Origin: a virus
Taxonomy: Duplodnaviria > Caudoviricetes
Reading direction: 5' to 3' (one strand)
Length of the DNA: 64,000 nucleotides
Virus record (IMG/VR): IMGVR_UViG_3300025735_000003
Coordinates: 1 to 64,000 of that record
Shown here: positions 1 through 49,737 of the stretch, in pieces
How the letters are laid out: the number at the start of each line of letters is the position of its first letter
Position numbering within the stretch: position 1 is the stretch's first letter
Notes under the pieces: model-generated
Told to the model about the DNA's origin: nothing
Database searches by the model: none
What the model saw: only the letters and a program-made list of their open reading frames with translations
Program-made: the position numbers and the translations under genes

Positions 1-80
1 GTGGGAAGCTAGAGATGTTGGGAAAGTGGTGAAGCAAAGAAAAGGTGTGGAAATTTAATTATTGAGAAGGAAATAAGTGC

Positions 81-905
81 ATGGGAAGTCGCGAGAGAGC
101 GTTTGTAGTACAAGTTGACGGTCAGGATATTGCCGTTCCCCGTAAACGTGTTCGTAAGGATAAGGTTGGTAAACCTGCTGTAAATCATAAGTATGATGAT
201 GAAAAAGAGTTTAATTCGTTGCACTTTAAGCCTATCGGAGAGGCGCAGACGCTCGGGGCACAGTATCTACAGGAAGGTCGTAAAATCGTGGCTCTACAAG
301 GCCCAGCCGGTGGTGGTAAGTCAATTTTAGCTGCATGGCACGCTGCAAACTTGCTGAAAGCTAAGTCTATCCACAAATTGTTCTTGGTTCGACCTTATGA
401 ATCTTGTGGGCGTACAATCGGTGCAGTTCCCGGCACGGAGGGCGAAAAACTTTCCGTAATTTTTACCAGTATCTTGGAGCATCTGACTAAGTTCCTTGGC
501 AAAACCCAATTGTCTTATATGCTTGAGAAAAAGGTAATCGAATTCAAAAGTGTTGAATGGATGCGTGGCTATAGTTTTGAGGATGAGGTATTCGTGCTGT
601 GTGAGGAGGTGCAAGGGTTTGATACTGACCTTATGCAGATGCTGACAACCCGTATTGGTGACGGCGCACAACTTTGTATGACGGGAGACTGGCGTCAAAA
701 AGACATCCGTAAAGAAACAGGTCTTAAATACTTGAGTGAAGTCGTAGAAGCTGCAAACAACACACCACCAGAGTTTCTTGATGACGAAGACATTCAGGAG
801 ATTAAGAACAACATTGGTTTTGTAAACTTTACGTTTGAGGATAGTGGACGTCGTAGTAAATTGACTAAGGCACTTGTTAAATTGTTTTACTTTGAGAAGG
901 GGTAG
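81..905 (+). CDS. phoH: PhoH-family ATPase
   Basis: Walker A GPAGGGKS; VRPY..G..IGAVPG..EKL; MRGYSF; EEVQ; LTTRIG; GDWRQKD motifs. Confidence 0.93.
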   Translation: MGSRERAFVVQVDGQDIAVPRKRVRKDKVGKPAVNHKYDDEKEFNSLHFKPIGEAQTLGAQYLQEGRKIVALQGPAGGGKSILAAWHAANLLKAKSIHKLFLVRPYESCGRTIGAVPGTEGEKLSVIFTSILEHLTKFLGKTQLSYMLEKKVIEFKSVEWMRGYSFEDEVFVLCEEVQGFDTDLMQMLTTRIGDGAQLCMTGDWRQKDIRKETGLKYLSEVVEAANNTPPEFLDDEDIQEIKNNIGFVNFTFEDSGRRSKLTKALVKLFYFEKG

Positions 906-913
906 GGAGTAAT

Positions 914-1681
914 TTGAAAGAAATTAATGGAGTAAGAGTTGCATCTAATGCCTTAGACTGGACAGGTCACGAAGTCGGAAGACTGGTTATCAAGAATGTT
1001 GAAGGTAGGCATGCAACTCGGAGGACTTTGGTATGGAATGCAGAATGTTCTTGTGGCAACACTACCAAAGTTACTTCCGCAGAGTTGTCAGCTAATGATA
1101 CGCAATCTTGTGGGTGTCTACACTTAGAAGTGATTGCTGTTACCAATAAGGCTTTTGCAGAGAAGTATTACACCCACGGAATGTCAGGAAGTCTTGAGCA
1201 GAAAGCTTGGAAAAGAATGAAAGGTCGTTGTACTAACCCAAATTCAAAAGAGTATGCAGTTTATTCGAAGATTGGTATTTCACAAGCATTTTCGGAAAGT
1301 TTTGTGAATTTCTACAATGACATTGGACCTATACCGGAAAACTTCAAAGGGCGTGTCTCAGTTGATCGAATAGAAAATTCCCTTGGTTACGTAGAGGGGA
1401 ATGTAAGATGGGCAAATGATGATATGCAAGCCAGAAACAAGGGTATGTATAACAGTAACAAGAGTGGTGTAACTGGGGTAAGATTGCACACTGGATCAGA
1501 TGGCAAAGATTATTGGTGTGCAAGTTGGTATCCTACAAGCGGAAAACAAAAGAGTAGGTACTTTTCAATACCTAAATATGGTGATGAATTAGCTTTCTTT
1601 GCTGCTTGTGAGTTTAGGTCGTTGATGATTGAACGTTTAAATCTAGTCGGTGCGGGTTACACAGAAAATCACGGTAAATAA
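914..1681 (+). CDS. HNH homing endonuclease with C-terminal AP2-like domain (family A)
   Basis: GRLVI..WNAECSCG..SCGC N-terminus; SVDRIENSLGYVEGNVRWA; NKSGVTGV; TTG start. Confidence 0.85.
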   Translation: MKEINGVRVASNALDWTGHEVGRLVIKNVEGRHATRRTLVWNAECSCGNTTKVTSAELSANDTQSCGCLHLEVIAVTNKAFAEKYYTHGMSGSLEQKAWKRMKGRCTNPNSKEYAVYSKIGISQAFSESFVNFYNDIGPIPENFKGRVSVDRIENSLGYVEGNVRWANDDMQARNKGMYNSNKSGVTGVRLHTGSDGKDYWCASWYPTSGKQKSRYFSIPKYGDELAFFAACEFRSLMIERLNLVGAGYTENHGK

Positions 1682-1690
1682 GGGGCTGGT

Positions 1691-2560
1691 ATGAACACAA
1701 CTAACAATGAAGATTTCATGTTTCCACAATTTAGTATGAACGGGTCTGTACGGGAACGAACTATCCCAACTAAAGTGTACACGCTTTACCTAGATGGTGA
1801 AATTGGAGCACCTTCTGAGTATAGGGATCACATGGAAGCTCTTGAATCTGCAAACGAGTGGGATGAAGTGCGGGTTATAATTTCAAGTGGAGGAGGTCGC
1901 CTAGACAGCGGTCTGATGCTGATTGACGGGATTAAAGCTTGTCGTGCCCCAGTAACGGCGTACATTCACGATATCTGCGGTTCTATGGCGACAGGTGTGG
2001 CCCTTGCGTGTCAAAACTGGCTTCTAGGGGATTTTGCATATTTCTTCGTGCACACAGCAAGCTGGGGAACATTTGGCAAAGACAGCGAAATTCGCAGTCA
2101 TGTGCAATTCATGGATAAACGAATTGATAAATTCCTCCACAGTATGTATGATGGTTTTATGTCTAGCGAAGAAATTTCTTTGGTCGGAAAAGGCCAAGAT
2201 TTGTGGATTGATTCGGAAGAACTGAAAGAGCGGCTGGAAGCTTACCAAGAATACCGGAACAATCAACCCTGTAACTGTGGCGATGAATCTTGCCCTCAGA
2301 ACCAACGATTGGCAGCAGAATCACAAAGGGATGACTTCGAAGATATTGAAGACTTCGATCTTGAAGCTCTTATTGCTGAAAAGGTAGCCGAAGGCATCGC
2401 CCTGCATGAGAAAAAGAAATTAGCTGCTGAGAAAAAGGCTTCCCGCGCAAAGAAACCAAACGCCAAAACCCAAGCTGTGATGGATGCTACAGATAAGGGC
2501 GAGGATTTGATCCACTTTGACAGTAAAGAAGCACTTTTTGAAGCTCTTGATCTAAAATAA
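1691..2560 (+). CDS. ClpP-like serine protease with acidic/basic linker and C-terminal DinJ/RelB-antitoxin-like segment
   Basis: YLDGEIG, ISSGGG, CGSMA (Ser), FVH (His), DLWID; the last 34 aa PNAKTQAVMDATDKGEDLIHFDSKEALFEALDLK match the DinJ C-terminal pattern. Confidence 0.85.
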   Translation: MNTTNNEDFMFPQFSMNGSVRERTIPTKVYTLYLDGEIGAPSEYRDHMEALESANEWDEVRVIISSGGGRLDSGLMLIDGIKACRAPVTAYIHDICGSMATGVALACQNWLLGDFAYFFVHTASWGTFGKDSEIRSHVQFMDKRIDKFLHSMYDGFMSSEEISLVGKGQDLWIDSEELKERLEAYQEYRNNQPCNCGDESCPQNQRLAAESQRDDFEDIEDFDLEALIAEKVAEGIALHEKKKLAAEKKASRAKKPNAKTQAVMDATDKGEDLIHFDSKEALFEALDLK

Positions 2561-2563
2561 TTG

Positions 2564-2601
2564 TTGCAATGAATACGTGGGAGGTTTACAATTACTCCCA
2601 C
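2564..2601 (+). promoter_or_regulatory. sigma70 promoter whose -10 lies in the loop of an inverted repeat
   Basis: TTGCAA (2564-69), 17 bp, TACAAT (2587-92); GTGGGAG 2577-83 / CTCCCAC 2595-2601. Confidence 0.7.
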
Positions 2602-2628
2602 TAACCCAAACATAAAGGAGAGAATATT

Positions 2629-4401
2629 ATGACTGACCAAGAAGAACTAGATATTTTGATGGAAAAGATTGCAGTGATTAAAGAGGAGAACTTTGGAGTA
2701 TGTCCTTCTGGTCAATATATGGATGGGCTTCTTGACAAGATGTGGGAACTCCAAGATAAAATTAAACTGGGAGGAGTAAAGTGATTTCATACGAAGAGAT
2801 TGAAGAGTTGCTCGCAGAACAACAAGCTGACCTTCTTGCTGCACAGGAAAAGTCAGAGAATTCTGAGAAGGAAGAATGAAAGAATTAGATTACGATGAAC
2901 GATATGAGGATTATTTAGCAATCGTTGAACACTGTTTCGATGTTGAGCCGATGTGGCATTGGGAAGTTGATCTAGAATCTAACTGTATTGATTAAGGAGA
3001 ATAAAATGCCACTGTACATGTTAGTTAAAGTAGATTTCGGACACCGTGAGAATATGGGGCTGTTTGATACACAAGCTAAAGCACTTGCATTGCAGACATC
3101 TCTTGAGCTAGAATTGTTTGATAGTGGAAGTTTAGCGGGTATTAGTTTTTATATTGAGGAGTGGTATACGAAGTGAGTATTGAAAAAGAAGTAACCCAAA
3201 AGTTTTATGACCATCTTGTAAAGCCTGAATTGTTTCTGGAAGAGATTTGGTTTGAAGATAAGTATGGAAATGTCCACTGGAATGGTGAAAGCAATATTGA
3301 TGATCTGGTAAATGGTGATGGGGACACATATTCTGGTGATATCCGTACAGAGGTAGTGGAGATAGATGGTTTTGCACTGTACACTTTAGGCAATGATTGT
3401 GGTGGAGAAAGCCAACTTATTTTTAAACTTAGTAATAAAATTAATCCAGAGGATTATGCATGAATCAGTTTGCACAATACGAAAATGAAGTAGAAGAAGA
3501 ACCAACCATTAGCGATTGGATTTCCTCAGACGCTTCAGGTGCTAGCAATATGCTTGGGGAGGATATTTATTCAGCAGTTGTAGAGGCACTTGGTTATGAG
3601 TAAGACTGAAGACCGTGCTAAAGGTTTCATCTTACAATGCATTGAGCAATGTAAACAGATTAAACCCGATCCTCAAATAACTGACTTTCACTGTCAACTT
3701 ATCATTCAGTTGACAGGCAAGGTATTTGAACTAGAGGAACAGATTAGGGAGTTGAAAAATGAGCAACAGCGCTTATAATTGTTTTCTTGATGCAGAACTT
3801 GAAAAGTATTACGAAGAATTAGAGGAACCACTAGACCTATGCTGGGATGATGAACCAGTAATAGAACCCAACACTGATTATGATAATTATGATAACTGGG
3901 ATGATATGCAATGACTGAAGAACCTATTGGTGCTTTGTGTGGTAAAGTAAATAAAATCATTCCTCATACCCCTTACTACTTAGCTGATGGGAATGTTGTT
4001 ATAAAGAAATGGAAAGAATCTTTCGTAGACCGAATGGGCAATAAGGCAGAGCTTATGAAAGTGTTGTTTAGGACGAAGAAGAATAAAGAGAATGTTGCAG
4101 TTATTCAAGTAAATTGGGAGTAGAGAATATGGGTGAGAAGAAAGATCCAAAAGTAACTATTGTAGACTACCAGACATTTACGGATTACCTGTTCAACCCA
4201 CCTTCAACCTTTTACATACAGAACGCTATGGGAGAATATTGGTTTGTGCATACTTCTTCAAGAGTTGCTGCACAAGAATATATAGATTCTGTTTATGGTA
4301 AAAATCGGTATACTGTTGTAGCTAGCAAACTTCAGAAGACAGTTAGTAAATCAGAGAGTGGAGAGTTGTCATGCCGAGGGACAGCAACAAGAAAGAAATA
4401 A
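2629..4401 (+). CDS. Run of about 10 small, mostly acidic hypothetical proteins (e.g. 2629-2784, 2781-2879, 3006-3176, 3173-3463, 3596-3778, 3911-4123, 4129-4401)
   Basis: Tightly packed or overlapping ORFs with AGGAG RBS and ATGA couplings. Confidence 0.7.
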
Positions 4402-4904
4402 TCAACAAAGAATACTCACTCTACATGGACATTGCCCTACGTGCAGCCCAAGACAGCCATGCAGTCAGAAAGAAAGTAGGCTCATGCATTCTAACTAATA
4501 GTCGTGGACTTTACGTTGGTTATAACGGAACACTTCCCGGAATGAGCAACACTTGTGAGGAGAGGATTTACAGTAATGGTGCAGGTGGTTGGATGGATGT
4601 CGAAGAGTTTAAAGAAATCTATCCTTACGAAGATGAGAATGGACATTACAAACTTAAAACTTTGGAAGGTGTAGTCCACTCGGAAATTAATTCGCTATGT
4701 AAGATGCTTAAGGAAGGTGTTAGTGCAGAGGGAGCTACAATCTTCGTAACATTGTCCCCATGTGCAACTTGCAGTTCAATTATTGCTTCTAGTGGGATTA
4801 GAAAGGTTGTATACTATGAGGAATATCGGGATACTAAGGGAATTGAGATGCTAGAAGACTTTGGTGTAGAAGTTGTACAATATGAGAAAGGAGAAAAATC
4901 ATGA
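4371..4904 (+). CDS. dCMP deaminase
   Basis: KKVGS, GYNG, VHSEIN, TLSPCATC Zn motifs. Confidence 0.92.
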   Translation: MPRDSNKKEIINKEYSLYMDIALRAAQDSHAVRKKVGSCILTNSRGLYVGYNGTLPGMSNTCEERIYSNGAGGWMDVEEFKEIYPYEDENGHYKLKTLEGVVHSEINSLCKMLKEGVSAEGATIFVTLSPCATCSSIIASSGIRKVVYYEEYRDTKGIEMLEDFGVEVVQYEKGEKS

Positions 4905-5962
4905 ATAAAGTTACATTATACGGCCTCAACAAAGCTGGAGGCTTTAAGATCTGGGCTATCGAAACAAAAGATGAAGAAATTCATATTGAGTTTGGTCAGG
5001 AGAATGGTAAGATTCAGCTCAAAATTGAATCTGTCAAAGGTAAGAACATTGGACGGAGTAACGAGACGACTCCTGTACAACAAGCTGAGTTGGAAGCTCT
5101 TAGTAAGATTGAGAAACAGAAAGATAAAGGTTATCGGCTGGACAAAGATGATCTACAAGACCTAGATATTCTCCCAATGTTGAGTGCAGATTACACAAAA
5201 CAAGGGCACCGTATTAAATACCCTTGCTGGGGTAGTGACAAGATGGACGGATGCCGTGCTCTGGCTATTTGTGAAAACGGTGCTGTAACTTTGAAGTCCC
5301 GAGGTGGTAAACTGTACGATGTAAAACATCTGCAAGGTCAGCTTGCCGCTGTTATGAAAGATGGTGAAGTGTGGGATGGTGAGTTGTTCATCAAAGGTAA
5401 GTATCTTGAAGAGATTGTTTCTGCTATCAAGAAGCCTAATCCACTGACACCTTATCTTGGATTTGTTATATTTGATATTGTGAATACTGAAGAATTTAGT
5501 TCCCGTATTGATACAATCAGAGCTATTCCTAAACGTTTGTTGGGTACTCAGATACAGGTTATTGAGTATCTTAACATTGAGTCTGAACAAGAGATGAAAG
5601 TTAAACACAGAGACTGTGTTGCTCGTGGTTTTGAAGGTTTGATGCTTCGCAATGGTAAGGGTGTCTATGAGTCTGGTAAACGTTCGGCAGACAGCCAGAA
5701 ATTCAAGACTTTCTTTGACTCAGAATTTAAGATTATTGATGTAATATCAGATAAAGATGGTGGTGCAATCTTTGTAGTTGCGAATACCTTTGCCGACAAT
5801 CAATTCAACGTTGTAGGTGGCTCACATGATCAACGTAAACAATGGTTGGCTGATAAAGACTCTCTGATTGGTAAATTCATTACTGTAAAATATCAAACCA
5901 CTTATAAAGACACTCAGATTCCACAATTCCCAACGTTCGTTACGTTTCGAGATTATGAATAA
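4901..5962 (+). CDS. ATP-dependent DNA ligase
   Basis: KMDGCR adenylation motif, DGELF, FDI, EGLMLR, K.K..FDSEF, P+FP terminus. Confidence 0.93.
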   Translation: MNKVTLYGLNKAGGFKIWAIETKDEEIHIEFGQENGKIQLKIESVKGKNIGRSNETTPVQQAELEALSKIEKQKDKGYRLDKDDLQDLDILPMLSADYTKQGHRIKYPCWGSDKMDGCRALAICENGAVTLKSRGGKLYDVKHLQGQLAAVMKDGEVWDGELFIKGKYLEEIVSAIKKPNPLTPYLGFVIFDIVNTEEFSSRIDTIRAIPKRLLGTQIQVIEYLNIESEQEMKVKHRDCVARGFEGLMLRNGKGVYESGKRSADSQKFKTFFDSEFKIIDVISDKDGGAIFVVANTFADNQFNVVGGSHDQRKQWLADKDSLIGKFITVKYQTTYKDTQIPQFPTFVTFRDYE

Positions 5963-5972
5963 GGAGAACAAA

Positions 5973-6401
5973 ATGCATAGCAATGAATCGAGCTGGAATC
6001 CCGACGAAATAGTAGATACTAAATCTCTACAACTATTCACTCTTCGTGAATTTATGAAGTGTCTTAACTACGACTTTGTTGAAGGAACTCTCTGGTCCAA
6101 CCCATTCTTTCACTCATCTCATCATTCTAATAAAGGTCGTAACATTATTGGCTTTGTTGGAGCCCTAAAGCTTTATAACGGGAATAGTGTGAAGTGTGTA
6201 TTCGGTAAGCCACCAGAAAAACTCAGCTTGTGGTCATTTAATGATTACCAAATTGCTAAAGCTAAGGCAGCACGTATCCTTGTCAGACTGAAGCTGCAAC
6301 TGTGTAAGTCTACCAAAACTATTCTGGTTCAGGATCACCGAGTGGAATTTACATTGAAAAGTTACTCTAAACTCTTTCTTTCGAACAAATATCTGGGGTG
6401 A
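5973..6401 (+). CDS. Hypothetical protein
   Basis: ORF with AAGGAG RBS before ATG 5973. Confidence 0.7.
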   Translation: MHSNESSWNPDEIVDTKSLQLFTLREFMKCLNYDFVEGTLWSNPFFHSSHHSNKGRNIIGFVGALKLYNGNSVKCVFGKPPEKLSLWSFNDYQIAKAKAARILVRLKLQLCKSTKTILVQDHRVEFTLKSYSKLFLSNKYLG

Positions 6402-6404
6402 TCC

Positions 6405-6590
6405 ATGAACCACGACAGGGTTTGTTTATTCAAAGATGGCTCTTGGTGCTGGAATTATGAGTTCAGTTTTAAGGAGTTTGGACACAAAGGGGAGTATCAA
6501 GAGATTATTTTAGGCCAAGGGTGGCTAGACAGAGACGTTTCAATCATGCTGGCCGAATATTATAGTGAAAACACCCATCTTTTTGATTAA
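6405..6590 (+). CDS. Hypothetical protein
   Basis: 61-aa ORF in operon, ends just before terminator. Confidence 0.65.
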   Translation: MNHDRVCLFKDGSWCWNYEFSFKEFGHKGEYQEIILGQGWLDRDVSIMLAEYYSENTHLFD

Positions 6591-6594
6591 TTCT

Positions 6595-6635
6595 AAGCCT
6601 CCAGTCTTGACGGACTGGAGGCTTTCTGGTCTAAT
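6595..6635 (+). terminator. Intrinsic terminator fused to sigma70 promoter (-35 is the hairpin loop)
   Basis: AAGCCTCCAGTC-TTGACG-GACTGGAGGCTT-TC; TTGACG, 17 bp, TCTAAT with TG extension. Confidence 0.8.
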
Positions 6636-6658
6636 GGGTTTACTAATCAGGAGGAACT

Positions 6659-7678
6659 ATGGAACAAGATAAACTGAAGAAACAATTGGAGCTGCTTCAT
6701 TCAGACTTGAAGCGCTGCAATAACAGGTGTAATCGTATTTCTAAAGCAATCGGCATTGAACAGAACGATTTAATTCAGTACGCAATGGACGAGACACAAG
6801 CTGTGCTGGATTATATTAGGATGTTGAAGGAGAAAGAAAATGCTAGTCAAACAGAGAATCAAGTGGGAATATGAATACCACTTTGGAAAAGAACCTTGGT
6901 TTCCAGCATTCTTAGATTACAAGAAGAATAGGGGTTCTGAAAGATTCAGACTGAACGCTGCTATGGAAGAGTTTTTCGAATATGTTATTTCATTAGAGGA
7001 AAAGCTAAAATGACACAAGAACAATACTATCTCCTAGAGAGGTTACGTACAAACCTCCTAGATGCAGCATCTGAGCTAGAACTTCTAGGAAAGCTTCCAA
7101 GGTTTGTGCAGAATATTGATTGGATGCTAGACGAGCTTGATGAGTATGTTAAATTGCAAAAGGAGTTGGATGATGAGTAATAGTGATAAATGGTTATTTG
7201 GGTTTATTACCCTGTGGATTATACTGTGTGCCGGTAAGCCTGACTTGATTGATGCACTGACTATACGTGTAATGGGTGATCAAGCTGTTTATGAAAAGAT
7301 GAAAGGAGAGAAAGAATGATCCACCTAGCGCCAATGACTGACGAACAACGCCAAGCTGTCAAAGACCAACGTATTGCTGACCAAGAATACGCACGAGAAA
7401 ACGTAACCTTAGATCGACCAGACGAACCTTACTGGAAAGCTCTTGCCTCCGAACAGGGTATCCGCATGCCACAGTGGCACATCTTAGGTACAGAGATTAA
7501 ATATATTCGAAGGGCTTGTAAAAAGTTAGGTGTTGATGTAAAAGAGTACACAGATTCTACGGGCTTTAAAACACTGAAAGAATTTGCCGAAACTAACCAT
7601 AAATTCAATGCTGTTGCTCAAGTCGGTCTTGTGCTAGAATACTGGGTAGATAAAGAGGGTAATTGCGGGATTAAATAG
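6659..7678 (+). CDS. Cluster of small hypothetical proteins (6659-6874, two unlisted ~55-aa ORFs, a small membrane ORF, 7316-7678)
   Basis: RBS-led, ATGA-coupled ORFs. Confidence 0.7.
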
Positions 7679-7689
7679 GGTAAGTTGGT

Positions 7690-7713
7690 GTAGTTTTACC
7701 CTATTAAAACTAC
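7690..7713. promoter_or_regulatory. Perfect 9-bp inverted repeat, operator-like
   Basis: GTAGTTTTA-CCCTAT-TAAAACTAC in an intergenic gap. Confidence 0.4.
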
Positions 7714-7757
7714 GATCTATTTAATTTCAATGACGGTACATGTGAAGAGGTGGTGCC

Positions 7758-7928
7758 ATGTTCTTTATAGTTTATTTAGCCATTAGTTTAGTAATGTTTT
7801 ACCACGAAGTATTAGATTCATACAGATGTAAAGTTAAGATTGATTTCGTAAGGAGCATATCCTTCTCTCTTTTGTGGGTTGTAAGTATTCCTTTCTCCAC
7901 TTATATGATGTGGAAGGAGCTGAAATGA
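7758..7928 (+). CDS. Small two-TM membrane protein (56 aa, not in ORF track)
   Basis: GAGGTGG RBS; MFFIVYLAISLVMFY...SFSLLWVVSIPF; ATGA overlap with next gene. Confidence 0.65.
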   Translation: MFFIVYLAISLVMFYHEVLDSYRCKVKIDFVRSISFSLLWVVSIPFSTYMMWKELK

Positions 7929-8107
7929 CAAAAGAATATTCCCATGACAGAGAAGTGATCAAAGACTTCATCCGCTACATCTCGGATGAGCATAAATGTG
8001 CAGTGGTGTGTTTTCCAGATGAATTTGCAGCTAACAGTTATGTAAATTACAGGTTTATTAATGTTTCAGATATCTTGGAAGAGTTTATTGAGGGGAGAAA
8101 GCAATGA
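7925..8107 (+). CDS. Hypothetical protein (true start likely 7925)
   Basis: AAGGAG RBS; coupled to phaZ by ATGA overlap. Confidence 0.65.
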   Translation: MTKEYSHDREVIKDFIRYISDEHKCAVVCFPDEFAANSYVNYRFINVSDILEEFIEGRKQ

Positions 8108-8940
8108 ACATTCAAATGCAAAACCAAACAATCATGTTGGGGAATCAATCAATCTACGTTTCGATTAAACCGGGGAAGGTTGGGAGTATTCCTCTTCTGA
8201 TTATGAATGGTATTGGAGCGAATACAACTTTACTGACTCCGTTTGTTGAAGCTATGCACGAATCAAATCCTGATCTTGAGATTATTACTTTTGATGTGCC
8301 GGGGTGTGGAGGATCTTCTACTCCTTCGCTGCCATACAGGTTTAGTGGACTATCTAAGATTGTTTCGCATATGTTGGACTATTTGAACTACGCGCAAGTG
8401 GATCTACTGGGTCTATCGTGGGGCGGATTCTTAGCCCAACAGTTTGCTTATGATTACCCTCAACGCTGTAAGAAACTAATTCTATGCGCTACAGCAACAG
8501 GAGTTACAAGTATACCACCTAGTATGAAAGTACTTTCTTTAATGTCTTCACCTAGACGCTACACTGATTCAGCCTATATGATTGAGATTGCCCCCCTAAT
8601 ATACGGTGGAAAATTCCGAACAGACCCTCAGATAGCAATTAAGTATGCTGAGAAGATGGAGGCTAATAGCTCTGAAAATAAAGCTAGTGCCACTGGGTAC
8701 AAGTTTCAACAGCTAGCAATATGTTGGTGGAGTAGCTTGTGGATGCTTCCTTACATCAAACAACCTACACTTTTGATAGGAGGTAGCGATGACCCGATCA
8801 TACCTCTAGTGAATATGAAGATTATGAAAGGACTTATTCCTAATTCAAAGCTTCATACAGTGGATGATGGGCACCTTTTCCTCCTCTGCTCAACTGATGT
8901 AGTAACACCAATTATTAATGAGTTTTTGGAGGGTAAATGA
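8104..8940 (+). CDS. phaZ: Intracellular medium-chain-length poly(3-hydroxyalkanoate) depolymerase (alpha/beta hydrolase)
   Basis: PLLIMNGIGAN, FDVPG.GGSSTP.LPYRF.GL, lipase box GLSWG, AQQFA.DYP.RCKKL, SPRRY, AP.IYGG.FR.DP, DDPIIPLVNM, DDGHLFL: collinear with Pseudomonas PhaZ as recalled. Confidence 0.92.
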   Translation: MNIQMQNQTIMLGNQSIYVSIKPGKVGSIPLLIMNGIGANTTLLTPFVEAMHESNPDLEIITFDVPGCGGSSTPSLPYRFSGLSKIVSHMLDYLNYAQVDLLGLSWGGFLAQQFAYDYPQRCKKLILCATATGVTSIPPSMKVLSLMSSPRRYTDSAYMIEIAPLIYGGKFRTDPQIAIKYAEKMEANSSENKASATGYKFQQLAICWWSSLWMLPYIKQPTLLIGGSDDPIIPLVNMKIMKGLIPNSKLHTVDDGHLFLLCSTDVVTPIINEFLEGK

Positions 8941-10496
8941 ATAATATTGTAAGTATTGAAGTAGAAATCAAACGAGAGCCTGAATATCCCGTATATTGCT
9001 TTGATATGTGGATGTTGTTTGATAATCAGAATGCTTATTTGGATTGGTCAGACAGTTTGGATAGGGTATGATTGAAATCCTTGGCTATGGGTTTGCTATT
9101 ATAATGTATTTCTTATTCTGTTACTTCATGATATTTAAAACGAGGTTGTGATGACAAGCCCTGAACGCTGCTCATGTGGAACTAGAGAGAAGAATAAGTG
9201 TAATAAAGAATCCACACCTATTGATGGTGTAAGGTATGGTAAAATGTGCGTAAAGGAAGTGAAAGAGGAGAGTAAGAAGGATGTTTGAATTAGATTACCA
9301 ACTACCACCAGAGTATAAAAGCTTAGAGTATCTGCACACAAAACTTGGTGATGTACAGGTTGTGGAGTGTGTTTGTATCATCTGGAATGCCATGCACAAA
9401 GGGAATACACTCCGTGTAAAGAGTGCAGATGATAAGACAGGAATTATTATGATAACTGGTGTTTGTGATGACACACGAGAGGTTATTAAGATTGGTAAGT
9501 GGCTAACTACGTTTGCTTTGGTGCAGATTAGGTATGAGAGGACTATTTTTAGTGTGGAGATTTGAATGGACCAAACAATTGAAGACAGAATGCAGGCTGT
9601 AGAGATTGAGTTGAAAGAGATTAGGAAAGAATTGGAGGGGAGTCTGGCGAGGTATAGTCCACATTACCCAGACGAGAACAGACTGATCAACGATCGTGAA
9701 TATTGCAGTCGGTGGATTAGAGGTGAGATTAAAGCAAGTTCTGAGTGGTTCATGAAGGAGATTTATAAATGAAAGCATATCAAGTGGTGTTGGTTGATGG
9801 TGATGGAGCTAGCTTTGAAGAGTTCGTAACTCCTAAAGTGTTTATGGATAAGGTAAAGGCTGAAGCTTACAAACAGTTCTTTATTGACGAGGATGCTGGT
9901 TGGTGGAAAGTGTATGTTAAGGAAGTGGAGTTGGTAGAATGAAACCAATAATCCTTAAAACACCAGAAGGGCTATATGTCTATGAAATCCCTATTGAGAA
10001 TGAACCAGAAGATGGGGCATCTGACGAGGTTTGGTGGAGATGGGGATAGCTACTACGTAGCGATAGCAGCTTGTGGGGTTGGTAGTAGTCCTGTAGAGGC
10101 TTATAATAATTGGGTGAAGGATTGGGAGGATAATGTGTGATGAAAGTTAGTACGTTGGCTTGCCTATGCTTTGGTGCATGGATCAGTTTAATGTGGACAA
10201 ACGGATAAGATAAAAGAGTTGTCTGCTAAAGTTCAAGTACTGGAATCAATTAATAAGGAGAAGATGTGATGAGTGATTTCAAAAGCTGGTGCGAAGTAGC
10301 TGAATATCTATTAGCTAACAAATGGAACTCTGTAGATGTAGATAGCACATGGTCATTCACAGAGGATAAGAGTTGGAGTAAGGTATATCCTCCTGAAGAT
10401 GCCAGTGACTATGAGCACTATAAGAATATTGGAGATGCGATAGAAGAGATGAAGTATTTCTGTGATGGTGACTTAGGGAGTGTTAGTAGAGAATGA
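8937..10496 (+). CDS. Cluster of small hypothetical proteins (incl. 9281-9565, 9566-9772, 9770-9942, 10266-10496; two look frameshifted)
   Basis: Packed ORFs with RBS; see findings. Confidence 0.6.
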
Positions 10497-10705
10497 ACCT
10501 TAAACCAGAAGACTTAGAAATCAGCACATACCCACCCTATAAAACTGGTGGACAACATGTTGGGCTTACTCACAGCGGTGTGCTGATTGCGCATATTCCT
10601 ACGGGGCTTGGTGTTGTGTCCGTTAGTGAGAGGAGTCAGTATAGGAATAAAGAGAGGGCTTTGACAATGTTGGAAATATTGGTTGAATTGGAGGAAGATG
10701 AATGA
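10493..10705 (+). CDS. Stand-alone peptide chain release factor GGQ domain (RF-1 domain, 70 aa)
   Basis: LKPEDLEISTY...GGQHV...SGVLIAHIPTGLGV.S.SERSQYRNKERALTML follows the RF1/RF2 domain-3 pattern (DLRIDT..GGQHVN..SAVRITHLPTG....QDERSQHKNK..A...L). Confidence 0.85.
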   Translation: MNLKPEDLEISTYPPYKTGGQHVGLTHSGVLIAHIPTGLGVVSVSERSQYRNKERALTMLEILVELEEDE

Positions 10706-10807
10706 GTTTTGTAATATTTACACTTGGTATTGTCGTGGTGTCTTACCCTTTCTTTGGGGCCATTGTTTATGGTGATCCGTGGACTTGGATCTTTAAGGAG
10801 AAGAAAG

Positions 10808-11008
10808 ATGTTTGAACCAAGAGCACCACTAACACAAGAAGAGATAAACCAACTGTTGTCCTCTGTACAACTAAGGTCAACACCAGAAGATCCTTGTGCT
10901 AAATATCCTGAATTGCTCAAGATGAAAGGCCGATACCGTGTTCAGTTTGGAGAGGACCAACTATACAGAGATTATAAACTTGTACAACAAAGGTTGAGAA
11001 ACGAATGA
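10808..11008 (+). CDS. Hypothetical protein
   Basis: RBS before ATG 10808; ATGA-coupled to the next gene. Confidence 0.6.
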   Translation: MFEPRAPLTQEEINQLLSSVQLRSTPEDPCAKYPELLKMKGRYRVQFGEDQLYRDYKLVQQRLRNE

Positions 11009-11556
11009 GTGTAAAGACATTAGAAACCAGACACGAAGGCTTAACAGTCTTCGATACTGAAACAGGAGAGCTTCTATACCACAAGAAACCTAAACCTGTG
11101 AAGATGGGAAGCTTTGATAAGTATGTAGGGATTGATACCAAATATCCACAAGACTGTGTAACCAAAGACAGCTTGCTTGAGTGTCTATCTGTTTTGGATG
11201 GGTACATCAATGATAAACCATACCTTACGTCTCACAATCTGCTAGATGCTTTGAATCAGAATCTACTTACTCCACAAGAGCTGAAGTTGATTACACATAT
11301 AGTTAATAACCTAACAGGTTGGAATATCTACATTGGCACAGTAAAGGACTTATGCACTTGTGGGATTACAGAAGCAAACATCTCTCGTTTGATTAAGGGA
11401 TTAGATCCTAATGTACTGAGAGTGAAGCACAGGAACAAGCCATTCAGAGGAGATATAGTCATTGAAGTCAGTCCTACATATGGTTGGAAAGGAGATATTA
11501 GATATCGAGAAATGAAGATTGGTAGTTGGTATGGAGCTAGTTTAACGCTTGATTAG
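11005..11556 (+). CDS. Winged-helix protein resembling the RepL-type replication protein family
   Basis: FDTETGEL N-terminal motif; ELKLITHIVNN...KDL..CGITEANISRLIKGL HTH; V(S)PTYGWKG. Confidence 0.5.
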   Translation: MSVKTLETRHEGLTVFDTETGELLYHKKPKPVKMGSFDKYVGIDTKYPQDCVTKDSLLECLSVLDGYINDKPYLTSHNLLDALNQNLLTPQELKLITHIVNNLTGWNIYIGTVKDLCTCGITEANISRLIKGLDPNVLRVKHRNKPFRGDIVIEVSPTYGWKGDIRYREMKIGSWYGASLTLD

Positions 11557-11671
11557 AATGAGTTGACAAACGAACTCATCATTGGTGATGAATTGATGTA
11601 CCTGTAAGTCCCTATTTCTGGGGCTGTTTGCATCTACCCTACTTATTAATATACATGTGAGAGAAATATCT

Positions 11672-11893
11672 ATGGGATTATTTAATGTAAATCTGGAAGA
11701 GACCTACTGTGAAGGGTTTAATCAGGACAGCACTGAACAACCTTGAGCTGTATGAACCTTACTGTAGTAAAGGACCAAGAGAAGGCGAGTTCAAGGATTC
11801 GATAGGGCAAACACCACCGATTATCTGGTTAAGGATTTTGCAATGAAGTATCTAAGAGATGCATTGGAAATATTGGAACGTGAAGGAGAGTAA
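11672..11893 (+). pseudogene. Probable ~73-aa gene broken by two compensating single-base indels
   Basis: RBS+ATG 11672; protein-like segments in two frames joined at an A-run (~11690) and a G-run (~11806); ends TAA 11893 before terminator. Confidence 0.35.
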
Positions 11894-11931
11894 GTTCTTG
11901 GAAGTTTAACCTTCACAACCCCCTGTAAATT

Positions 11932-11966
11932 AGGAGTCAGCTTGTGTTAGTGACTCCTTTTCTTTT
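11932..11966 (+). terminator. Intrinsic terminator ending the left + operon
   Basis: AGGAGTCA...TGACTCCT followed by TTTCTTTT. Confidence 0.75.
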
Positions 11967-12700
11967 GTCTGGAAAATATAGCAAAGCCTTTGTTTATAAG
12001 GGTCTAGTTCAAAATTCCTTGGATATCTATCTGAAGGGCTTAACGCTCTTGGCCGGCACCTGTCAAATAGCATGCCAAATAATAAAATATTAGAGAATTC
12101 TATCAGATAACTCTTCCCAATACACCTTACCTATACTCTATTAGCAGTTCTAACCTGATAGTAACAATCAACTAACAGCAAGCTCTGTGCCAAGTCACTC
12201 ATCGATAGTTATTACTCATCACTAGGCGTTACCATAATTCACATTGCGTATAATCTGCCTTCCGTAACATGTTACCTCATACACACTGACTATCAATCAC
12301 CTGTCGTGTACCTCTGATCACTCATACCGACCACTGTATGTCAACCATAGTAATACGTACTGACGTACCCCTACACAACTAGCACACTTCACTAGCTTAA
12401 GTCAATGTATTATGTTACTGAGCAGCATAAGATGTGTAGTACTGATTAGTTATACAGTACTGTACGTGGATACAGATGCAAACTTGGGGATCTTTGCTAC
12501 CGTGCTTGACAAATGAGGACTTATTATCACATGAATAAGTGATTAAAAACTACACTAGGCAGTGTATCTTAAGGGGCTTGCAGACTATGATTAACATAGC
12601 TTACACTTGATTGGTAGGCATTTAGAAGGTAGTTGTAATCACAAAGGTATGGATAAGACTAAGCCGTGCATTGCACGGCTATAATTTTCCTGCTTATTAT
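11967..12700. other. Non-coding convergence region; candidate terminal repeat, packaging end or origin
   Basis: No credible ORF; G-poor + strand; 12-bp palindromes; GTAC cluster. Confidence 0.5.
12662..12680. terminator. Hairpin at end of the minus-strand early unit
   Basis: AGCCGTGCA-T-TGCACGGCT, 20 bp after the HNH stop. Confidence 0.55.
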
Positions 12701-13309
12701 TTAAGAGTGGTAATTCTCATACTTATCAATCAAAGCTTTAGCTACACGCTCATCTGTCTGCTCAGCCGCTAGGATGTAGGCTTGTTCTAGTTTAAATGTA
12801 AGCCATGCTTGATGAGCTTCTTCTGGTGTATCATAACAGCCAAGATTCTTATTTTCACCGGTGATTACATCCCTACACCTAGCAAACAGCCTTTTAGCCA
12901 ATTTGTGATAAGTTACTCCAATGGGCCAATCTCCTCGCGTAGTGTCACGAATAAATGTGTTCACTTTTGGTGTAATAAAAACACAGGTGTTTGGACCATA
13001 GACCTTGTTATTGGGTACTAGCAGATCCTTATCTATCTGCTTTCCTTCCCAATCTTGCTGTTCCATCCAAGATTTAAACTTGCTGAAGGTTAGCCACTCA
13101 TGTGCTACTGAACAACCTACGTAAGATGGAGATTTTTCTTGTACCTTTTCTGAGTAGCACCGTGAAAGCATATCCCGCCAACGAGCATAGAAAGGGCAGA
13201 CTATCAGTACTTTCTTACCATCTTCAAGTGTAACATGTTTACCGACATTATAGTCGGCATCATTTATACCAACACCTATCACTAGTTTCTCTCTATAATT
13301 CAATTTCAT
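12701..13309 (-). CDS. HNH-type homing endonuclease (family B)
   Basis: VIGVGINDADY, CPFY..W..ML.RCYS, WL.FS.FK.WM, IDKDLL..NKVY.P.TC.F; paralogue of 22636 and 49123. Confidence 0.8.
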   Translation of the reverse strand: MKLNYREKLVIGVGINDADYNVGKHVTLEDGKKVLIVCPFYARWRDMLSRCYSEKVQEKSPSYVGCSVAHEWLTFSKFKSWMEQQDWEGKQIDKDLLVPNNKVYGPNTCVFITPKVNTFIRDTTRGDWPIGVTYHKLAKRLFARCRDVITGENKNLGCYDTPEEAHQAWLTFKLEQAYILAAEQTDERVAKALIDKYENYHS

Positions 13310-22635: not shown

Positions 22636-23331
22636 TCAAATACATCTTGTTATTACTCCCATAGAAGCTTCATTTTTAAGTCTACTAGCTCTCGCTAAAA
22701 GTGAGTCTGCCACATTCTCTTGGTAAGAGTACATATATTTTGGATCAGTGTACCACCATTCTACGGCTTGCTCAATAGCCCTTGCTTTATTTACCTGCCA
22801 AAATCTGTGAGCTTCTTCTTTTGTTTTGAAGAATCCGCTCACTTGTCCGCTAGGTAGGAATACAGAACTACAATTGACAGCATAGTCAATACTTGTTTTC
22901 TTTTTACCCTTATATACTCGTAAGCATACGCCTGTAGGAAGATCACGATCTTTTTGTACACTTCTAATGAGCAGCAAGTTAATAACTTTTGGTACAAAGC
23001 TGCAAGTTTCTGGTGAATATATTTTATTACCTTGCACCAAGATGTCCTTGTCGAGCTCCAGTCCTTGCCATACTTGTGTGTTCATCCACTCCACGAATTT
23101 GCTTGCATAAAGCCAATCCTCACAAGTATGTACTCCAAAATAACTTGAAGTTTCTACACTGTACCTTTTGGCGTATGCCCTATCCATCATATGGCCCCAT
23201 GCAACGTAATAGGGACATTTCCACATATCCACCGCCTTTACCTTGCCATTTACTTCTTGATATGTGGTCTTGCAGTATTGATAATCAAGATCATTAATGC
23301 CGACGCCATGTACTATTCTAGTCTTTACCAC
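22636..23331 (-). CDS. HNH-type homing endonuclease (family B)
   Basis: VHGVGINDLDY, CPYY..W..M..R, WLY.S.F..WM, LDKDIL.QGNKIYSP.TC.F. Confidence 0.8.
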   Translation of the reverse strand: MVKTRIVHGVGINDLDYQYCKTTYQEVNGKVKAVDMWKCPYYVAWGHMMDRAYAKRYSVETSSYFGVHTCEDWLYASKFVEWMNTQVWQGLELDKDILVQGNKIYSPETCSFVPKVINLLLIRSVQKDRDLPTGVCLRVYKGKKKTSIDYAVNCSSVFLPSGQVSGFFKTKEEAHRFWQVNKARAIEQAVEWWYTDPKYMYSYQENVADSLLARASRLKNEASMGVITRCI

Positions 23332-49085: not shown

Positions 49086-49109
49086 AGCCCGCCTCGTGCG
49101 GGCTTTCTT
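49086..49109 (+). terminator. Intrinsic terminator after nrdJ
   Basis: AGCCCGC-CTCGT-GCGGGCT-TTCTT. Confidence 0.75.
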
Positions 49110-49122
49110 AGTAGGAGATTTT

Positions 49123-49737
49123 ATGAGTGATAGTTTGGTCTACGGTGTAGGCATAAATGATGCTGATTACACAGTACAAATAAATGAGTTTGTAGGTTTT
49201 GATGCAAGAGGAAAGAAACTGTATAAATTAGCTTGGATGTGTCCCTTTTATAGCGTTTGGCACAATATGATTTCCCGCTGCTACTCCTCATCCTATCAAA
49301 AGCGGCAACCATCTTACGTGGGTTGCAAAGTAGACACAAGGTGGTTGAGATTTAGCACCTTTAAGATCTGGATGATCACGCAACCGTGGGAAGGTAACGC
49401 CCTAGACAAAGATATTCTATTTCCGGGTAACAGGGACTATAGTCCCGATGCTTGTGTTTTTGTAACTCAAAAGGTTAATAGCTTTTTGGCTGAGAGAGGT
49501 AATGACCGTGGTGAATACCCAATTGGGGTAGGCCTTCATAAACAGTCTGGTTTGTTCAGGGCTAGGTGCGGTGACACAGAAGGAGGCAGACAAAATCTGG
49601 GATACTTTCAAACACCTGAAGAGGCTCACCAAGCTTGGTTGTCTTACAAATTAGAACAAGCTAGGATATTAGCATCAAAACAGACAGACATCAGAGTTGC
49701 AGAAGCTCTGGTCAAAAGGTACGAGGATTATAAATAA
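49123..49737 (+). CDS. HNH-type homing endonuclease (family B)
   Basis: VYGVGINDADY, CPFY..W..M..RCYS, LDKDIL; AGGAG RBS before ATG 49123. Confidence 0.82.
   Translation: MSDSLVYGVGINDADYTVQINEFVGFDARGKKLYKLAWMCPFYSVWHNMISRCYSSSYQKRQPSYVGCKVDTRWLRFSTFKIWMITQPWEGNALDKDILFPGNRDYSPDACVFVTQKVNSFLAERGNDRGEYPIGVGLHKQSGLFRARCGDTEGGRQNLGYFQTPEEAHQAWLSYKLEQARILASKQTDIRVAEALVKRYEDYK

What the first reader, a model, noticed from the sequence alone, without database searches (positions are those of the whole stretch)
8104..8940. Phage-encoded intracellular PHA depolymerase (PhaZ): raiding the host carbon store
Seen: a full-length PhaZ-like hydrolase with an intact Ser (GLSWG), Asp (DDP) and His (DDGH) triad, no signal peptide, translationally coupled within a phage operon. 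It ends at EFLEGK and lacks the short basic C-terminal tail I recall in host PhaZ. Knowledge: Pseudomonas stores mcl-PHA granules under N/P limitation, and PhaZ releases 3-hydroxyacids for beta-oxidation. Inference: an auxiliary metabolic gene that fuels infection of starved cells by liquidating granules outside host control. phoH in the same unit fits a nutrient-limited niche. I cannot check whether this has been reported before.
Basis: partly seen in the sequence, partly recalled or inferred. Interest (0 to 1): 0.82.

Follow-up and report, generated by a model that had tools for sequence, protein, structure and literature searches.

The report
Phage-encoded PHA storage-polymer depolymerase (PhaZ)
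A complete 85.6-kb phage genome, related to a known Pseudomonas phage, carries an intact and selectively maintained copy of the enzyme Pseudomonas uses to break down its polyester (PHA) carbon store; this suggests, but does not show, that the phage taps that store during infection.

Summary
ORF 8104-8940 (+) encodes a 278-aa cytoplasmic alpha/beta hydrolase. It passes NCBIfam's equivalog cut-off for the intracellular mcl-PHA depolymerase PhaZ (331.8 vs 250.6 bits). It is 54% identical to P. putida PhaZ. It keeps the published triad (S105/D230/H257), the essential NGIG loop and a helical lid.

The gene sits in a complete phage genome with terminal repeats, overlaps both neighbours by ATGA, and matches the phage's GC. 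It is therefore not a chimera.

Orthologues occur at the same slot in many 85-93-kb contigs, with dN/dS of 0.06-0.14. Homologues also occur in at least seven other phage lineages. On a careful tree the phage copies form one clade, sister to the phaC-linked Pseudomonadaceae genes.

The host is probably Pseudomonas. The phage is collinear with Pseudomonas phage vB_PsaM_M1, which has the same 41% GC.

The fuelling role is inferred, not shown. The lid hinge carries a hypervariable insertion at a site where a point mutation in PhaZKT switches it from depolymerase to esterase. The disordered C-terminal tail is missing. The phoH link is not supported.

I found no published report of this. This scan had already noted phage PhaZ in at least five other genomes.

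The parts
8104..8940 (+). phaZ-like gene: 278-aa intracellular mcl-PHA-depolymerase-family alpha/beta hydrolase (the end coordinate includes the stop codon)
   Evidence: TIGR02240 331.8 bits against a cut-off of 250.6. Pfam Abhydrolase_1. 54% identity to P. putida PhaZ. AF2 model pLDDT 84.3.
8203..8217 (+). MNGIG loop (residues 34-38), equivalent to the FNGIG 34-38 loop of PhaZKT
   Evidence: Deleting this loop, or mutating Asn35, abolishes PhaZKT activity (PMC12504323). In 157 phage sequences N35 is 92% conserved and G36-I37-G38 are 100% conserved.
8416..8418 (+). Codon of the nucleophile Ser105 (GLSWGG), equivalent to Ser102 of PhaZKT
   Evidence: It lies at the strand-helix elbow (E99-104 / H107-117) in the model. 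It is 100% conserved in the phage clade.
8506..8748 (+). Helical lid domain (about residues 135-215), carrying the family motifs SPRRY, IYGG.F and GY..Q
   Evidence: Helices 141-208 lie between strands 122-128 and 222-227. Twenty-one lid positions are shared with Pseudomonadaceae PhaZ. The lid is as conserved as the core.
8659..8694 (+). Hypervariable hinge segment (residues 186-197) with an insertion of about 7 residues relative to PhaZKT; it covers the position equivalent to S184
   Evidence: Alignment. Low conservation. Low pLDDT for residues 181-210. S184F converts PhaZKT from a depolymerase to an esterase.
8791..8793 (+). Codon of Asp230 (DDP), equivalent to Asp221 of PhaZKT
8872..8874 (+). 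Codon of His257 (DGH), equivalent to His248 of PhaZKT
7925..8107 (+). Upstream 60-aa ORF of unknown function; its stop overlaps the phaZ start (ATGA)
   Evidence: No Pfam family. Homologues are also present in relatives that lack phaZ.
8937..9071 (+). Downstream 44-aa ORF; its ATG overlaps the phaZ stop (ATGA)
   Evidence: No Pfam family. No homologue in the related loci checked.

Best explanation
The gene encodes a catalytically competent cytoplasmic serine hydrolase. It belongs to a phage-borne sister lineage of the Pseudomonas intracellular mcl-PHA depolymerase PhaZ.

Proposed mechanism:
1. The gene is transcribed with the early/middle same-strand block (phoH, clpP, dCMP deaminase, ligase and many small ORFs) and is translated by coupling to its neighbours.
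2. The enzyme binds the host's PHA granules through its lid.
3. The Ser105-His257-Asp230 triad hydrolyses the polyester to (R)-3-hydroxyalkanoic acids.
4. Host acyl-CoA synthetase and beta-oxidation convert these acids to acetyl-CoA and reducing power.
5. Stored carbon is thereby turned into energy and precursors for phage replication, after host gene expression (including the host's own regulated phaZ) has been taken over.

Shown here: family membership, intact catalytic and lid motifs, purifying selection, a genuine phage location, the spread of the gene among unrelated phages, and kinship of the phage to a Pseudomonas phage.

Inferred: expression timing, the substrate (mcl-PHA), the benefit to the phage and the host genus.
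For: Family and sequence:
- Scores above the TIGR02240 equivalog cut-off.
- 53-55% identity to PhaZ of 80 Pseudomonas/Atopomonas genomes, every one flanked by phaC1 and phaC2.
- The triad aligns with the published S102/D221/H248 of PhaZKT.
- The triad and G36-I37-G38 (of the NGIG loop) are 100% conserved in 157 phage sequences; N35 is 92%.
- 87 of the 224 positions fixed in Pseudomonadaceae are kept in at least 90% of phage copies. These include 21 lid positions (SPRRY, IYGG.F, GY..Q).
- The lid is as constrained as the core.
- dN/dS is 0.06-0.14 against unsaturated orthologues.
- The AF2 model shows a canonical alpha/beta hydrolase with a helical lid. Top solved neighbours are esterases and the B. 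thuringiensis intracellular PHB depolymerase.

Phage setting and spread:
- Complete phage genome with terminal repeats.
- The gene's GC matches the phage's.
- ATGA overlaps at both ends.
- Syntenic orthologues occur in many contigs.
- On the careful tree the 38 phage rows form one clade (95/91), sister to the Pseudomonadaceae clade (99/99).
- No partner gene travels with it, so it must act on a host component.

Host:
- 45 of 156 ORFs are collinear with Pseudomonas phage vB_PsaM_M1: PhoH 78%, ClpP 79%, primase-helicase 80%, baseplate proteins 65-70%. Its GC is 41.0% against 40.6% here.
- Other PhaZ-bearing lineages are nearest to Pseudomonas phages Noxifer and EL.
- Intracellular mcl-PHA degradation is described as a Pseudomonas-specific trait (PMC12504323).
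- Only 4 of 400 sampled Gammaproteobacteria pass the family cut-off.
Against: - There is no enzymatic, expression or infection evidence of any kind.
- The score (332 bits) is about half that of a true Pseudomonas PhaZ (622 bits).
- The hinge around the S184 equivalent carries a hypervariable insertion of about 7 residues. The single change S184F turns PhaZKT from a depolymerase into an esterase, so substrate preference could differ.
- The disordered C-terminal tail is absent. A mutation there (G286R) modulates depolymerase activity in PhaZKT.
- The hinge motif YYWQLF reads YKFQQL here.
- Close relatives do without the gene: vB_PsaM_M1, L148 and L149.
- Ralstonia jumbo phages RP12 and RP31 carry a homologue at 46% identity. 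To my knowledge their host stores short-chain PHB, so the family in phages may not be restricted to mcl-PHA.
- The host is inferred, not demonstrated.
Confidence: 0.6

Rival explanations
1. Retuned esterase. The phage lineage descends from PhaZ, but its altered lid hinge and missing tail have shifted it to another ester substrate, such as a host lipid, an acyl-ester metabolite or an oligomer. Its benefit to the phage would then be unrelated to PHA granules.
For: The hinge segment 186-197 is hypervariable and longer than in PhaZKT. S184F in this hinge raises esterase activity and nearly abolishes depolymerase activity. Six clade-specific fixed differences exist, including A109F next to the nucleophile and G139P/K140S at the start of the lid. 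The RefSeq record of RP12 calls its homologue only 'esterase/lipase'. The nearest solved structures are generic esterases.
Against: Family-specific lid motifs are retained, and the lid is under the same constraint as the core. The score is over the equivalog cut-off. Some phage lineages (for example L137) keep a PhaZKT-like short hinge and part of the tail, yet they fall in the same clade. PhaZKT itself is highly substrate-specific.
Confidence: 0.17
2. The enzyme degrades PHA, but not for fuel. It might remove granules that crowd the cytoplasm. It might release granule-bound proteins such as phasins. It might stop carbon flowing into storage, or it might ease lysis and virion release.
For: This rival rests on the same sequence evidence for PHA depolymerase identity. 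The phage encodes no acyl-CoA synthetase or beta-oxidation enzyme of its own: every ORF of 400 aa or more is accounted for as a replication or structural protein. No partner gene co-travels with phaZ. When Bdellovibrio preys on P. putida, progeny number is reported to be independent of prey mcl-PHA, although the predator does degrade it (PMC4834554).
Against: Nothing in the sequence distinguishes this reading from fuelling. The gene lies in the early/middle metabolic block and not beside the lysis genes. Host beta-oxidation would use the released monomers in any case.
Confidence: 0.18
3. The gene is an assembly chimera, a recent accidental capture of a host gene, or a decaying passenger with no function for the phage.
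For: Some close relatives lack the gene.
Against: The genome is complete with terminal repeats. The gene's GC is 41% against about 63-68% for Pseudomonas phaZ. Both ends overlap phage ORFs. No phaC gene is nearby. dN/dS is 0.06-0.14. The phage copies form a deep clade of their own, outside the cellular clade.
Confidence: 0.02

Closest known systems
PhaZKT, the intracellular mcl-PHA depolymerase of Pseudomonas putida KT2440/KT2442 (NCBIfam TIGR02240, PHA_depoly_arom)
   Same: 54% identity over the whole length. Both have the Ser-Asp-His triad at aligned positions, the (F/M)NGIG loop with the essential Asn35, a helical lid, the lid motifs SPRRY / IYGG.F / GY..Q, and no signal peptide.
   Different: The window gene is encoded by a phage and not between phaC1 and phaC2. 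It lacks the 14-aa disordered basic C-terminal tail. It has a 3-aa insertion (HES, residues 53-55) and a hypervariable hinge insertion of about 7 aa at the S184 region. The hinge reads YKFQQL where PhaZKT has YYWQLF. It belongs to a sister clade, not the cellular clade. Its activity is untested.
ORF269 (YP_009598962.1) of Ralstonia jumbo phages RP12/RP31, annotated 'esterase/lipase' or 'hypothetical protein'
   Same: This is the only homologue found in a cultured phage: 46% identity over 98% of the length, with the triad and NGIG loop kept and no C-terminal tail.
   Different: It falls outside the main phage clade on a long branch. It lacks the hinge insertion. To my knowledge its host makes short-chain PHB rather than mcl-PHA. 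It has never been discussed as a PHA depolymerase in the literature I could search.
PhaZBd (Bd3709) of the predator Bdellovibrio bacteriovorus HD100
   Same: The concept is the same: an intruder brings its own mcl-PHA depolymerase and degrades the PHA store of a Pseudomonas prey (PMC4834554).
   Different: PhaZBd is an extracellular-type depolymerase of a different family without the lid. It belongs to a cellular predator, not a virus.
Candidate PHA-related viral AMGs from metagenomes: phaC, phbB and fadD in PHA-producing mixed cultures (PMC12013262), and a PHB-depolymerase candidate in a Gloeobacter prophage (preprint PMC13317609)
   Same: These are virus-borne genes of PHA metabolism proposed as auxiliary metabolic genes.
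   Different: They are synthesis genes or a PHB (short-chain) depolymerase in a prophage, found in single contigs. None is a TIGR02240-type enzyme, and none is shown to be a conserved multi-lineage phage clade.

Membership tests
Intracellular mcl-PHA depolymerase PhaZ (TIGR02240 / PhaZKT type) | Whole-protein score over the curated equivalog cut-off | tested here: met
   331.8 bits against a cut-off of 250.6. For scale, P. putida PhaZ scores 621.9 bits.
Intracellular mcl-PHA depolymerase PhaZ (TIGR02240 / PhaZKT type) | Catalytic triad Ser102/Asp221/His248 (PMC12504323) | tested here: met
   S105/D230/H257 align with the published triad. Their codons were verified. All three are 100% conserved in 157 phage sequences. 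They occupy the canonical positions after strands 99-104, 222-227 and 248-253 of the model.
Intracellular mcl-PHA depolymerase PhaZ (TIGR02240 / PhaZKT type) | FNGIG loop 34-38 with the essential Asn35 | tested here: met
   The window protein reads MNGIG at residues 34-38. N35 is 92% conserved and G36-I37-G38 are 100% conserved in phage copies.
Intracellular mcl-PHA depolymerase PhaZ (TIGR02240 / PhaZKT type) | Helical lid domain over the active site (residues 133-192 in PhaZKT), essential for activity | tested here: met
   Helices 141-208 are inserted between strands 122-128 and 222-227. Twenty-one lid residues are shared with the cellular clade. Lid conservation is 0.66 against 0.69 for the core.
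Intracellular mcl-PHA depolymerase PhaZ (TIGR02240 / PhaZKT type) | Hydrophobic hinge YYWQLF (190-195) | tested here: inconclusive
   The window protein reads YKFQQL (199-204). Y199 and Q202 are invariant in phage copies; the other positions vary.
Intracellular mcl-PHA depolymerase PhaZ (TIGR02240 / PhaZKT type) | Hinge around Ser184 (RSGG), which controls depolymerase versus esterase behaviour | tested here: not met
   It is replaced by a hypervariable segment about 7 residues longer (186-197). It is modelled with low confidence.
Intracellular mcl-PHA depolymerase PhaZ (TIGR02240 / PhaZKT type) | Disordered C-terminal tail (residues 266-283) | tested here: not met
   The window protein ends at FLEGK. 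P. putida PhaZ has 14 more residues.
Intracellular mcl-PHA depolymerase PhaZ (TIGR02240 / PhaZKT type) | Gene located between phaC1 and phaC2 in the pha cluster | tested here: not met
   All 86 bacterial loci have an adjacent phaC. No viral or metagenomic phage locus has one.
Intracellular mcl-PHA depolymerase PhaZ (TIGR02240 / PhaZKT type) | Specific hydrolysis of mcl-PHA granules to 3-hydroxyalkanoic acids | not testable with these tools
   This needs a purified enzyme assay or complementation.
Phage auxiliary metabolic gene (AMG) | Encoded inside a bona fide, complete phage genome and not on a host fragment | tested here: met
   An 85.6-kb genome with terminal repeats, rated 100% complete. 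Phage replication and structural genes lie on both sides. The gene's GC is like the phage's.
Phage auxiliary metabolic gene (AMG) | Homologue of a host metabolic enzyme, kept under purifying selection in phages | tested here: met
   It is sister to the Pseudomonadaceae PhaZ clade. dN/dS is 0.06-0.14.
Phage auxiliary metabolic gene (AMG) | Expressed during infection and changing host metabolism to the phage's benefit | not testable with these tools

The most novel reading that the evidence does not exclude
Phage PhaZ is a distinct, old, deregulated lineage of the Pseudomonas depolymerase, with no C-terminal tail and a remodelled lid hinge. It has been passed among at least eight unrelated lineages of probable Pseudomonas phages as a single-gene cassette. 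It is used to liquidate the host's PHA store. That would make carbon-storage polymers a general target of viral metabolic takeover, and it would make the PHA status of a cell a determinant of phage yield.
Probability: 0.5. Interest if true: 0.75.

Novelty: new variant of a known kind. Interest (0 to 1): 0.62.

Why it matters
PHA is the main carbon and energy reserve of Pseudomonas and many other bacteria, and it is an industrial bioplastic. Suppose phages routinely carry their own depolymerase. Then the storage state of a starved cell becomes a resource that viruses exploit. Phage infection could directly lower PHA yields in open or mixed-culture bioproduction, and viral lysis would release carbon from a pool not usually counted in viral-shunt budgets.

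The phage clade is also a ready-made natural library of more than 150 divergent PhaZ variants with different lid hinges and no disordered tail. This bears on current efforts to engineer PhaZKT for bioplastic recycling (PMC12504323).

The claim is directly testable with standard enzyme assays and with phage-host experiments in laboratory Pseudomonas strains.

Tried and rejected
- Megablast of 7000-10000 against 50,697 phage records found no match, so the lineage has no close cultured member in that collection.
No read mapping, expression evidence or sample metadata could be obtained.
- I first took the 40% GC as evidence against a Pseudomonas host. I rejected this because Pseudomonas phage vB_PsaM_M1, which is collinear with this phage, has 41.0% GC.
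- Scans of IMG/VR with single proteins (ligase, ClpP), meant to survey presence or absence among relatives, returned only 2 loci each. They still yielded two relatives without phaZ.
- A search for a gene that co-travels with phaZ across 13 lineages found none. The only shared 'families' were spurious frames inside phaZ itself.
- Pfam on ten neighbouring small ORFs found only DUF7390 and an RF-1 domain, nothing related to PHA.
- The class-level genome sample gave a frequency (4 of 400) but no taxon names, so the non-Pseudomonas cellular relatives remain unnamed.
- The listing of cluster members gave no organism names for the NCBI-derived homologues.
- Literature searches for a phage PHA depolymerase or phaZ AMG found no report of this gene type. 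A search for PRJNA327808 found nothing.
- The PDB holds no solved structure of a TIGR02240 member, so pocket-level comparison was not possible.
- The Ro60-like protein of L137 gave no information on host.
Full report
**1. The observation**

ORF 8104-8940 on the + strand encodes 278 aa.
- Pfam sees an alpha/beta hydrolase: Abhydrolase_1, E = 1.7e-27.
- NCBIfam places it in the equivalog model TIGR02240, 'poly(3-hydroxyalkanoate) depolymerase'. The score is 331.8 bits, E = 3.2e-99, against a curated cut-off of 250.6. The next family, PcaD, scores only 86.7 bits.
- PHROGs offers only a generic 'esterase/lipase' family.
- The start ATG overlaps the stop of the upstream ORF, and the stop overlaps the ATG of the downstream ORF. 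Both overlaps are ATGA.
- There is no signal peptide. In the AlphaFold model the N-terminus forms the first beta-hairpin of the fold.

**2. The setting is a real, complete phage**

The window is the first 64 kb of an 85,606-bp IMG/VR virus record with direct terminal repeats, rated 100% complete. I found a 127-bp exact repeat. GC is about 40% throughout.

The + strand block 1-12,100 holds PhoH, an HNH endonuclease, a ClpP-like protease, dCMP deaminase, an ATP-dependent ligase and many small ORFs. Further on lie primase-helicase, PolA and RNR genes. A myovirus structural module follows.

The phaZ gene has 41% GC and its flanks 39%. Bacterial phaZ genes have 60-68% GC. Together with the overlapping neighbours, this excludes a host-contaminated chimera.

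**3. Comparison with the characterised enzyme**

The protein is 54% identical to P. putida PhaZ.

A 2025 study of PhaZKT (PMC12504323) reports the following:
- The catalytic triad is Ser102/Asp221/His248.
- The lid spans residues 133-192.
- Deleting the FNGIG loop (34-38) or the YYWQLF hinge (190-195) abolishes activity, as does mutating Asn35.
- S184F in the hinge raises esterase activity and nearly abolishes depolymerase activity.
- The C-terminal region 266-283 is disordered, and G286R there increases depolymerase activity.

In the window protein:
- The triad aligns as S105/D230/H257.
- The loop reads MNGIG.
- The lid is present as helices 141-208, between strands 122-128 and 222-227.
- The YYWQLF hinge reads YKFQQL.
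- The S184 region is replaced by a segment about 7 residues longer.
- The 14-residue tail RQRAVMHPRPASGG is absent.

Across 157 phage homologues:
- S105, D229, D230, H257 and G36-A39 are invariant, and N35 is 92% conserved.
- The lid is as conserved as the core (mean top-residue frequency 0.66 against 0.69).
- The hinge 186-197 is hypervariable.

Of 224 positions fixed in 81 Pseudomonadaceae sequences, 87 keep the same residue in at least 90% of phage copies. These include 21 lid positions: SPRRY, IYGG.F, GY..Q and W.S. Only six positions are fixed differently, among them A109F next to the nucleophile and G139P/K140S.

No member of this family has a solved structure. The model (pLDDT 84.3) is closest to metagenomic esterases and to the intracellular PHB depolymerase of Bacillus thuringiensis.

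**4. Distribution**

The large protein database holds 4,734 homologues. The best 120 are 54-92% identical to the window protein. Many of them lie on contigs of 84-92 kb.

One such contig (L002, 74% identity) is syntenic: ClpP, dCMP deaminase, ligase, small ORFs, then phaZ.

IMG/VR holds 50 viral contigs with a homologue. None of the viral or metagenomic loci has a phaC gene, whereas all 86 bacterial loci do.

The carriers are clearly different phages:
- this 85-93-kb lineage at 39% GC;
- 223-228-kb contigs at 50% GC with a GroEL gene, whose nearest cultured relatives are the EL-like Pseudomonas jumbo phages;
- a 283-kb contig whose virion protein is 72% identical to that of Pseudomonas phage Noxifer;
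- a 307-kb contig;
- a 116-kb type with NAPRTase, PRPP synthetase and a Ro60-like protein;
- a 90-kb type at 58.5% GC with virion or lysin proteins;
- several others.

Among cultured phages, only the Ralstonia jumbo phages RP12 and RP31 have a homologue. It is 46% identical and annotated 'hypothetical protein' or 'esterase/lipase'.

No other gene travels with phaZ across 13 lineages. Within the window's own lineage the surrounding early region is highly mosaic. Two relatives (L148, L149) lack phaZ. L149 keeps the genes on both sides, with only about 500 bp between them. The gene is therefore an accessory single-gene cassette.

**5. Phylogeny and selection**

The best bacterial matches in 185,579 species genomes are all Pseudomonas or Atopomonas, at 53-55% identity. 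In an even sample of 400 Gammaproteobacteria, only 4 genomes pass the family cut-off.

A FastTree of 180 sequences and a careful IQ-TREE of 52 sequences (LG+C20+F+G4) agree:
- The phaC-linked Pseudomonadaceae genes form one clade (99/99).
- The 38 phage representatives form one clade (95/91), which is its sister (80/75).
- The window's lineage is a 100/100 subclade of 14.
- A small group (L126-L131, 59% GC) lies outside. Its neighbours are a ParA-like protein and a 'DNA transfer protein', so it may be plasmid-like.
- RP12 and three other gammaproteobacterial PhaZ genes also lie outside.

The phage genes are therefore not recent captures from present-day hosts. They form an old lineage that has moved between phages.

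Against six orthologues with dS below 1, dN/dS is 0.06-0.14. This is strong purifying selection.

**6. Host**

I first read the 40% GC as an argument against Pseudomonas. That was wrong.

The genome shares 45 of 156 ORFs, in collinear order, with Pseudomonas phage vB_PsaM_M1, which was isolated from seawater on Pseudomonas sp. ZM01. PhoH is 78% identical, ClpP 79%, primase-helicase 80% and the baseplate proteins 65-70%. That phage has 41.0% GC, and it has no phaZ.

The C-terminal domain of the tail fibre matches fibres of Burkholderia, Ralstonia and many Pseudomonas phages.

These results, the sister position to Pseudomonadaceae PhaZ, and the Pseudomonas-phage kinship of two other carrier lineages make a Pseudomonas or closely related host likely. 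It is not proven.

**7. Interpretation**

The most economical reading has these steps:
1. The phage makes a cytoplasmic PhaZ early or mid-infection.
2. The enzyme hydrolyses the host's mcl-PHA granules to 3-hydroxyalkanoic acids.
3. Host acyl-CoA synthetase and beta-oxidation turn these acids into acetyl-CoA and reducing power. This pathway logic is taken from the description of PhaZKT in PMC4834554.

The phage carries no beta-oxidation or synthetase gene of its own, so it relies on the host for these steps.

The main caveat is the remodelled hinge and the missing tail, both at positions that modulate PhaZKT's behaviour. These changes could deregulate the enzyme, which would fit 'outside host control'. 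They could equally shift its substrate.

A second caveat concerns benefit. Degradation need not mean fuel: Bdellovibrio degrades prey mcl-PHA without a change in progeny number.

PhoH lies 7 kb away and is conserved in the phaZ-less relative.

**8. Novelty**

Full-text searches found no report of a phage-encoded PhaZ of this type.

The nearest items are:
- PHA-synthesis AMG candidates in PHA-producing mixed cultures (PMC12013262);
- a PHB-depolymerase candidate in a Gloeobacter prophage (preprint PMC13317609).

Within this scan, other agents had already noted phage PhaZ in at least five other genomes. These were jumbo and other 'Pseudomonas-type' phages, and the conclusions were similar.

My results were obtained independently on this genome, and they agree. 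They add the following:
- the 85-93-kb vB_PsaM_M1-like lineage as a carrier;
- the mapping onto the 2025 mutagenesis data;
- the relatives with an empty slot;
- the lack of any co-travelling partner gene.

I rate it a new variant of a known kind: a known enzyme family and the known AMG concept, in an undescribed phage-specific clade with structural differences.

Noticed in passing
window 10493-10705 (+): A 70-aa ORF consists only of a release-factor RF-1 (GGQ) domain (Pfam PF00472, E = 1.9e-15). Homologues at 91-94% identity occur in two related phage contigs, L086 and L088.
   Followed up: partly
window 1691-2560 (+): A ClpP-like protease. Its first 185 residues or so are 79% identical to the protease of Pseudomonas phage vB_PsaM_M1. 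Its C-terminal 100 residues have no match there.
   Followed up: partly
window 53568-54674 (-): A tail-fibre protein. Its N-terminus matches vB_PsaM_M1 (56%). Its C-terminal 230 residues are 45-50% identical to tail fibres of temperate Burkholderia and Ralstonia phages (BcepMu, phiE131, Raharianne). This looks like a swapped receptor-binding domain.
   Followed up: no
window 914-1681, 12701-13309, 22636-23331, 49096-49737: Four paralogous HNH/T7-gp3.8-like homing endonuclease genes are scattered through the genome. All four match the same endonuclease gene of vB_PsaM_M1.
   Followed up: no
L149 9951-10652 (IMGVR_UViG_3300005288_000100): A close relative keeps the genes on both sides of the phaZ slot, with only about 500 bp between them and no phaZ. 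This is a natural 'empty site' for comparison.
   Followed up: partly
L126-L131 (IMG/VR contigs, about 59% GC): A separate small clade of PhaZ homologues sits next to a ParA-like partition protein and a 'DNA transfer protein' (phrog_1745). The carrier may be a plasmid or phage-plasmid rather than a lytic phage.
   Followed up: partly
L137 300-2898 and 13566-15059 (GCA_040384045.1 contig JAWVHH010001103.1): Another PhaZ-bearing phage type also encodes PRPP synthetase, NAPRTase (NAD salvage), a Band_7 protein and a Ro60/vWA-like protein whose nearest phage matches are in actinobacteriophages.
   Followed up: no
window 5955-6401 (+): A DUF7390 protein lies directly after the DNA ligase. It is conserved at 54-97% identity across most related contigs.
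   Followed up: no
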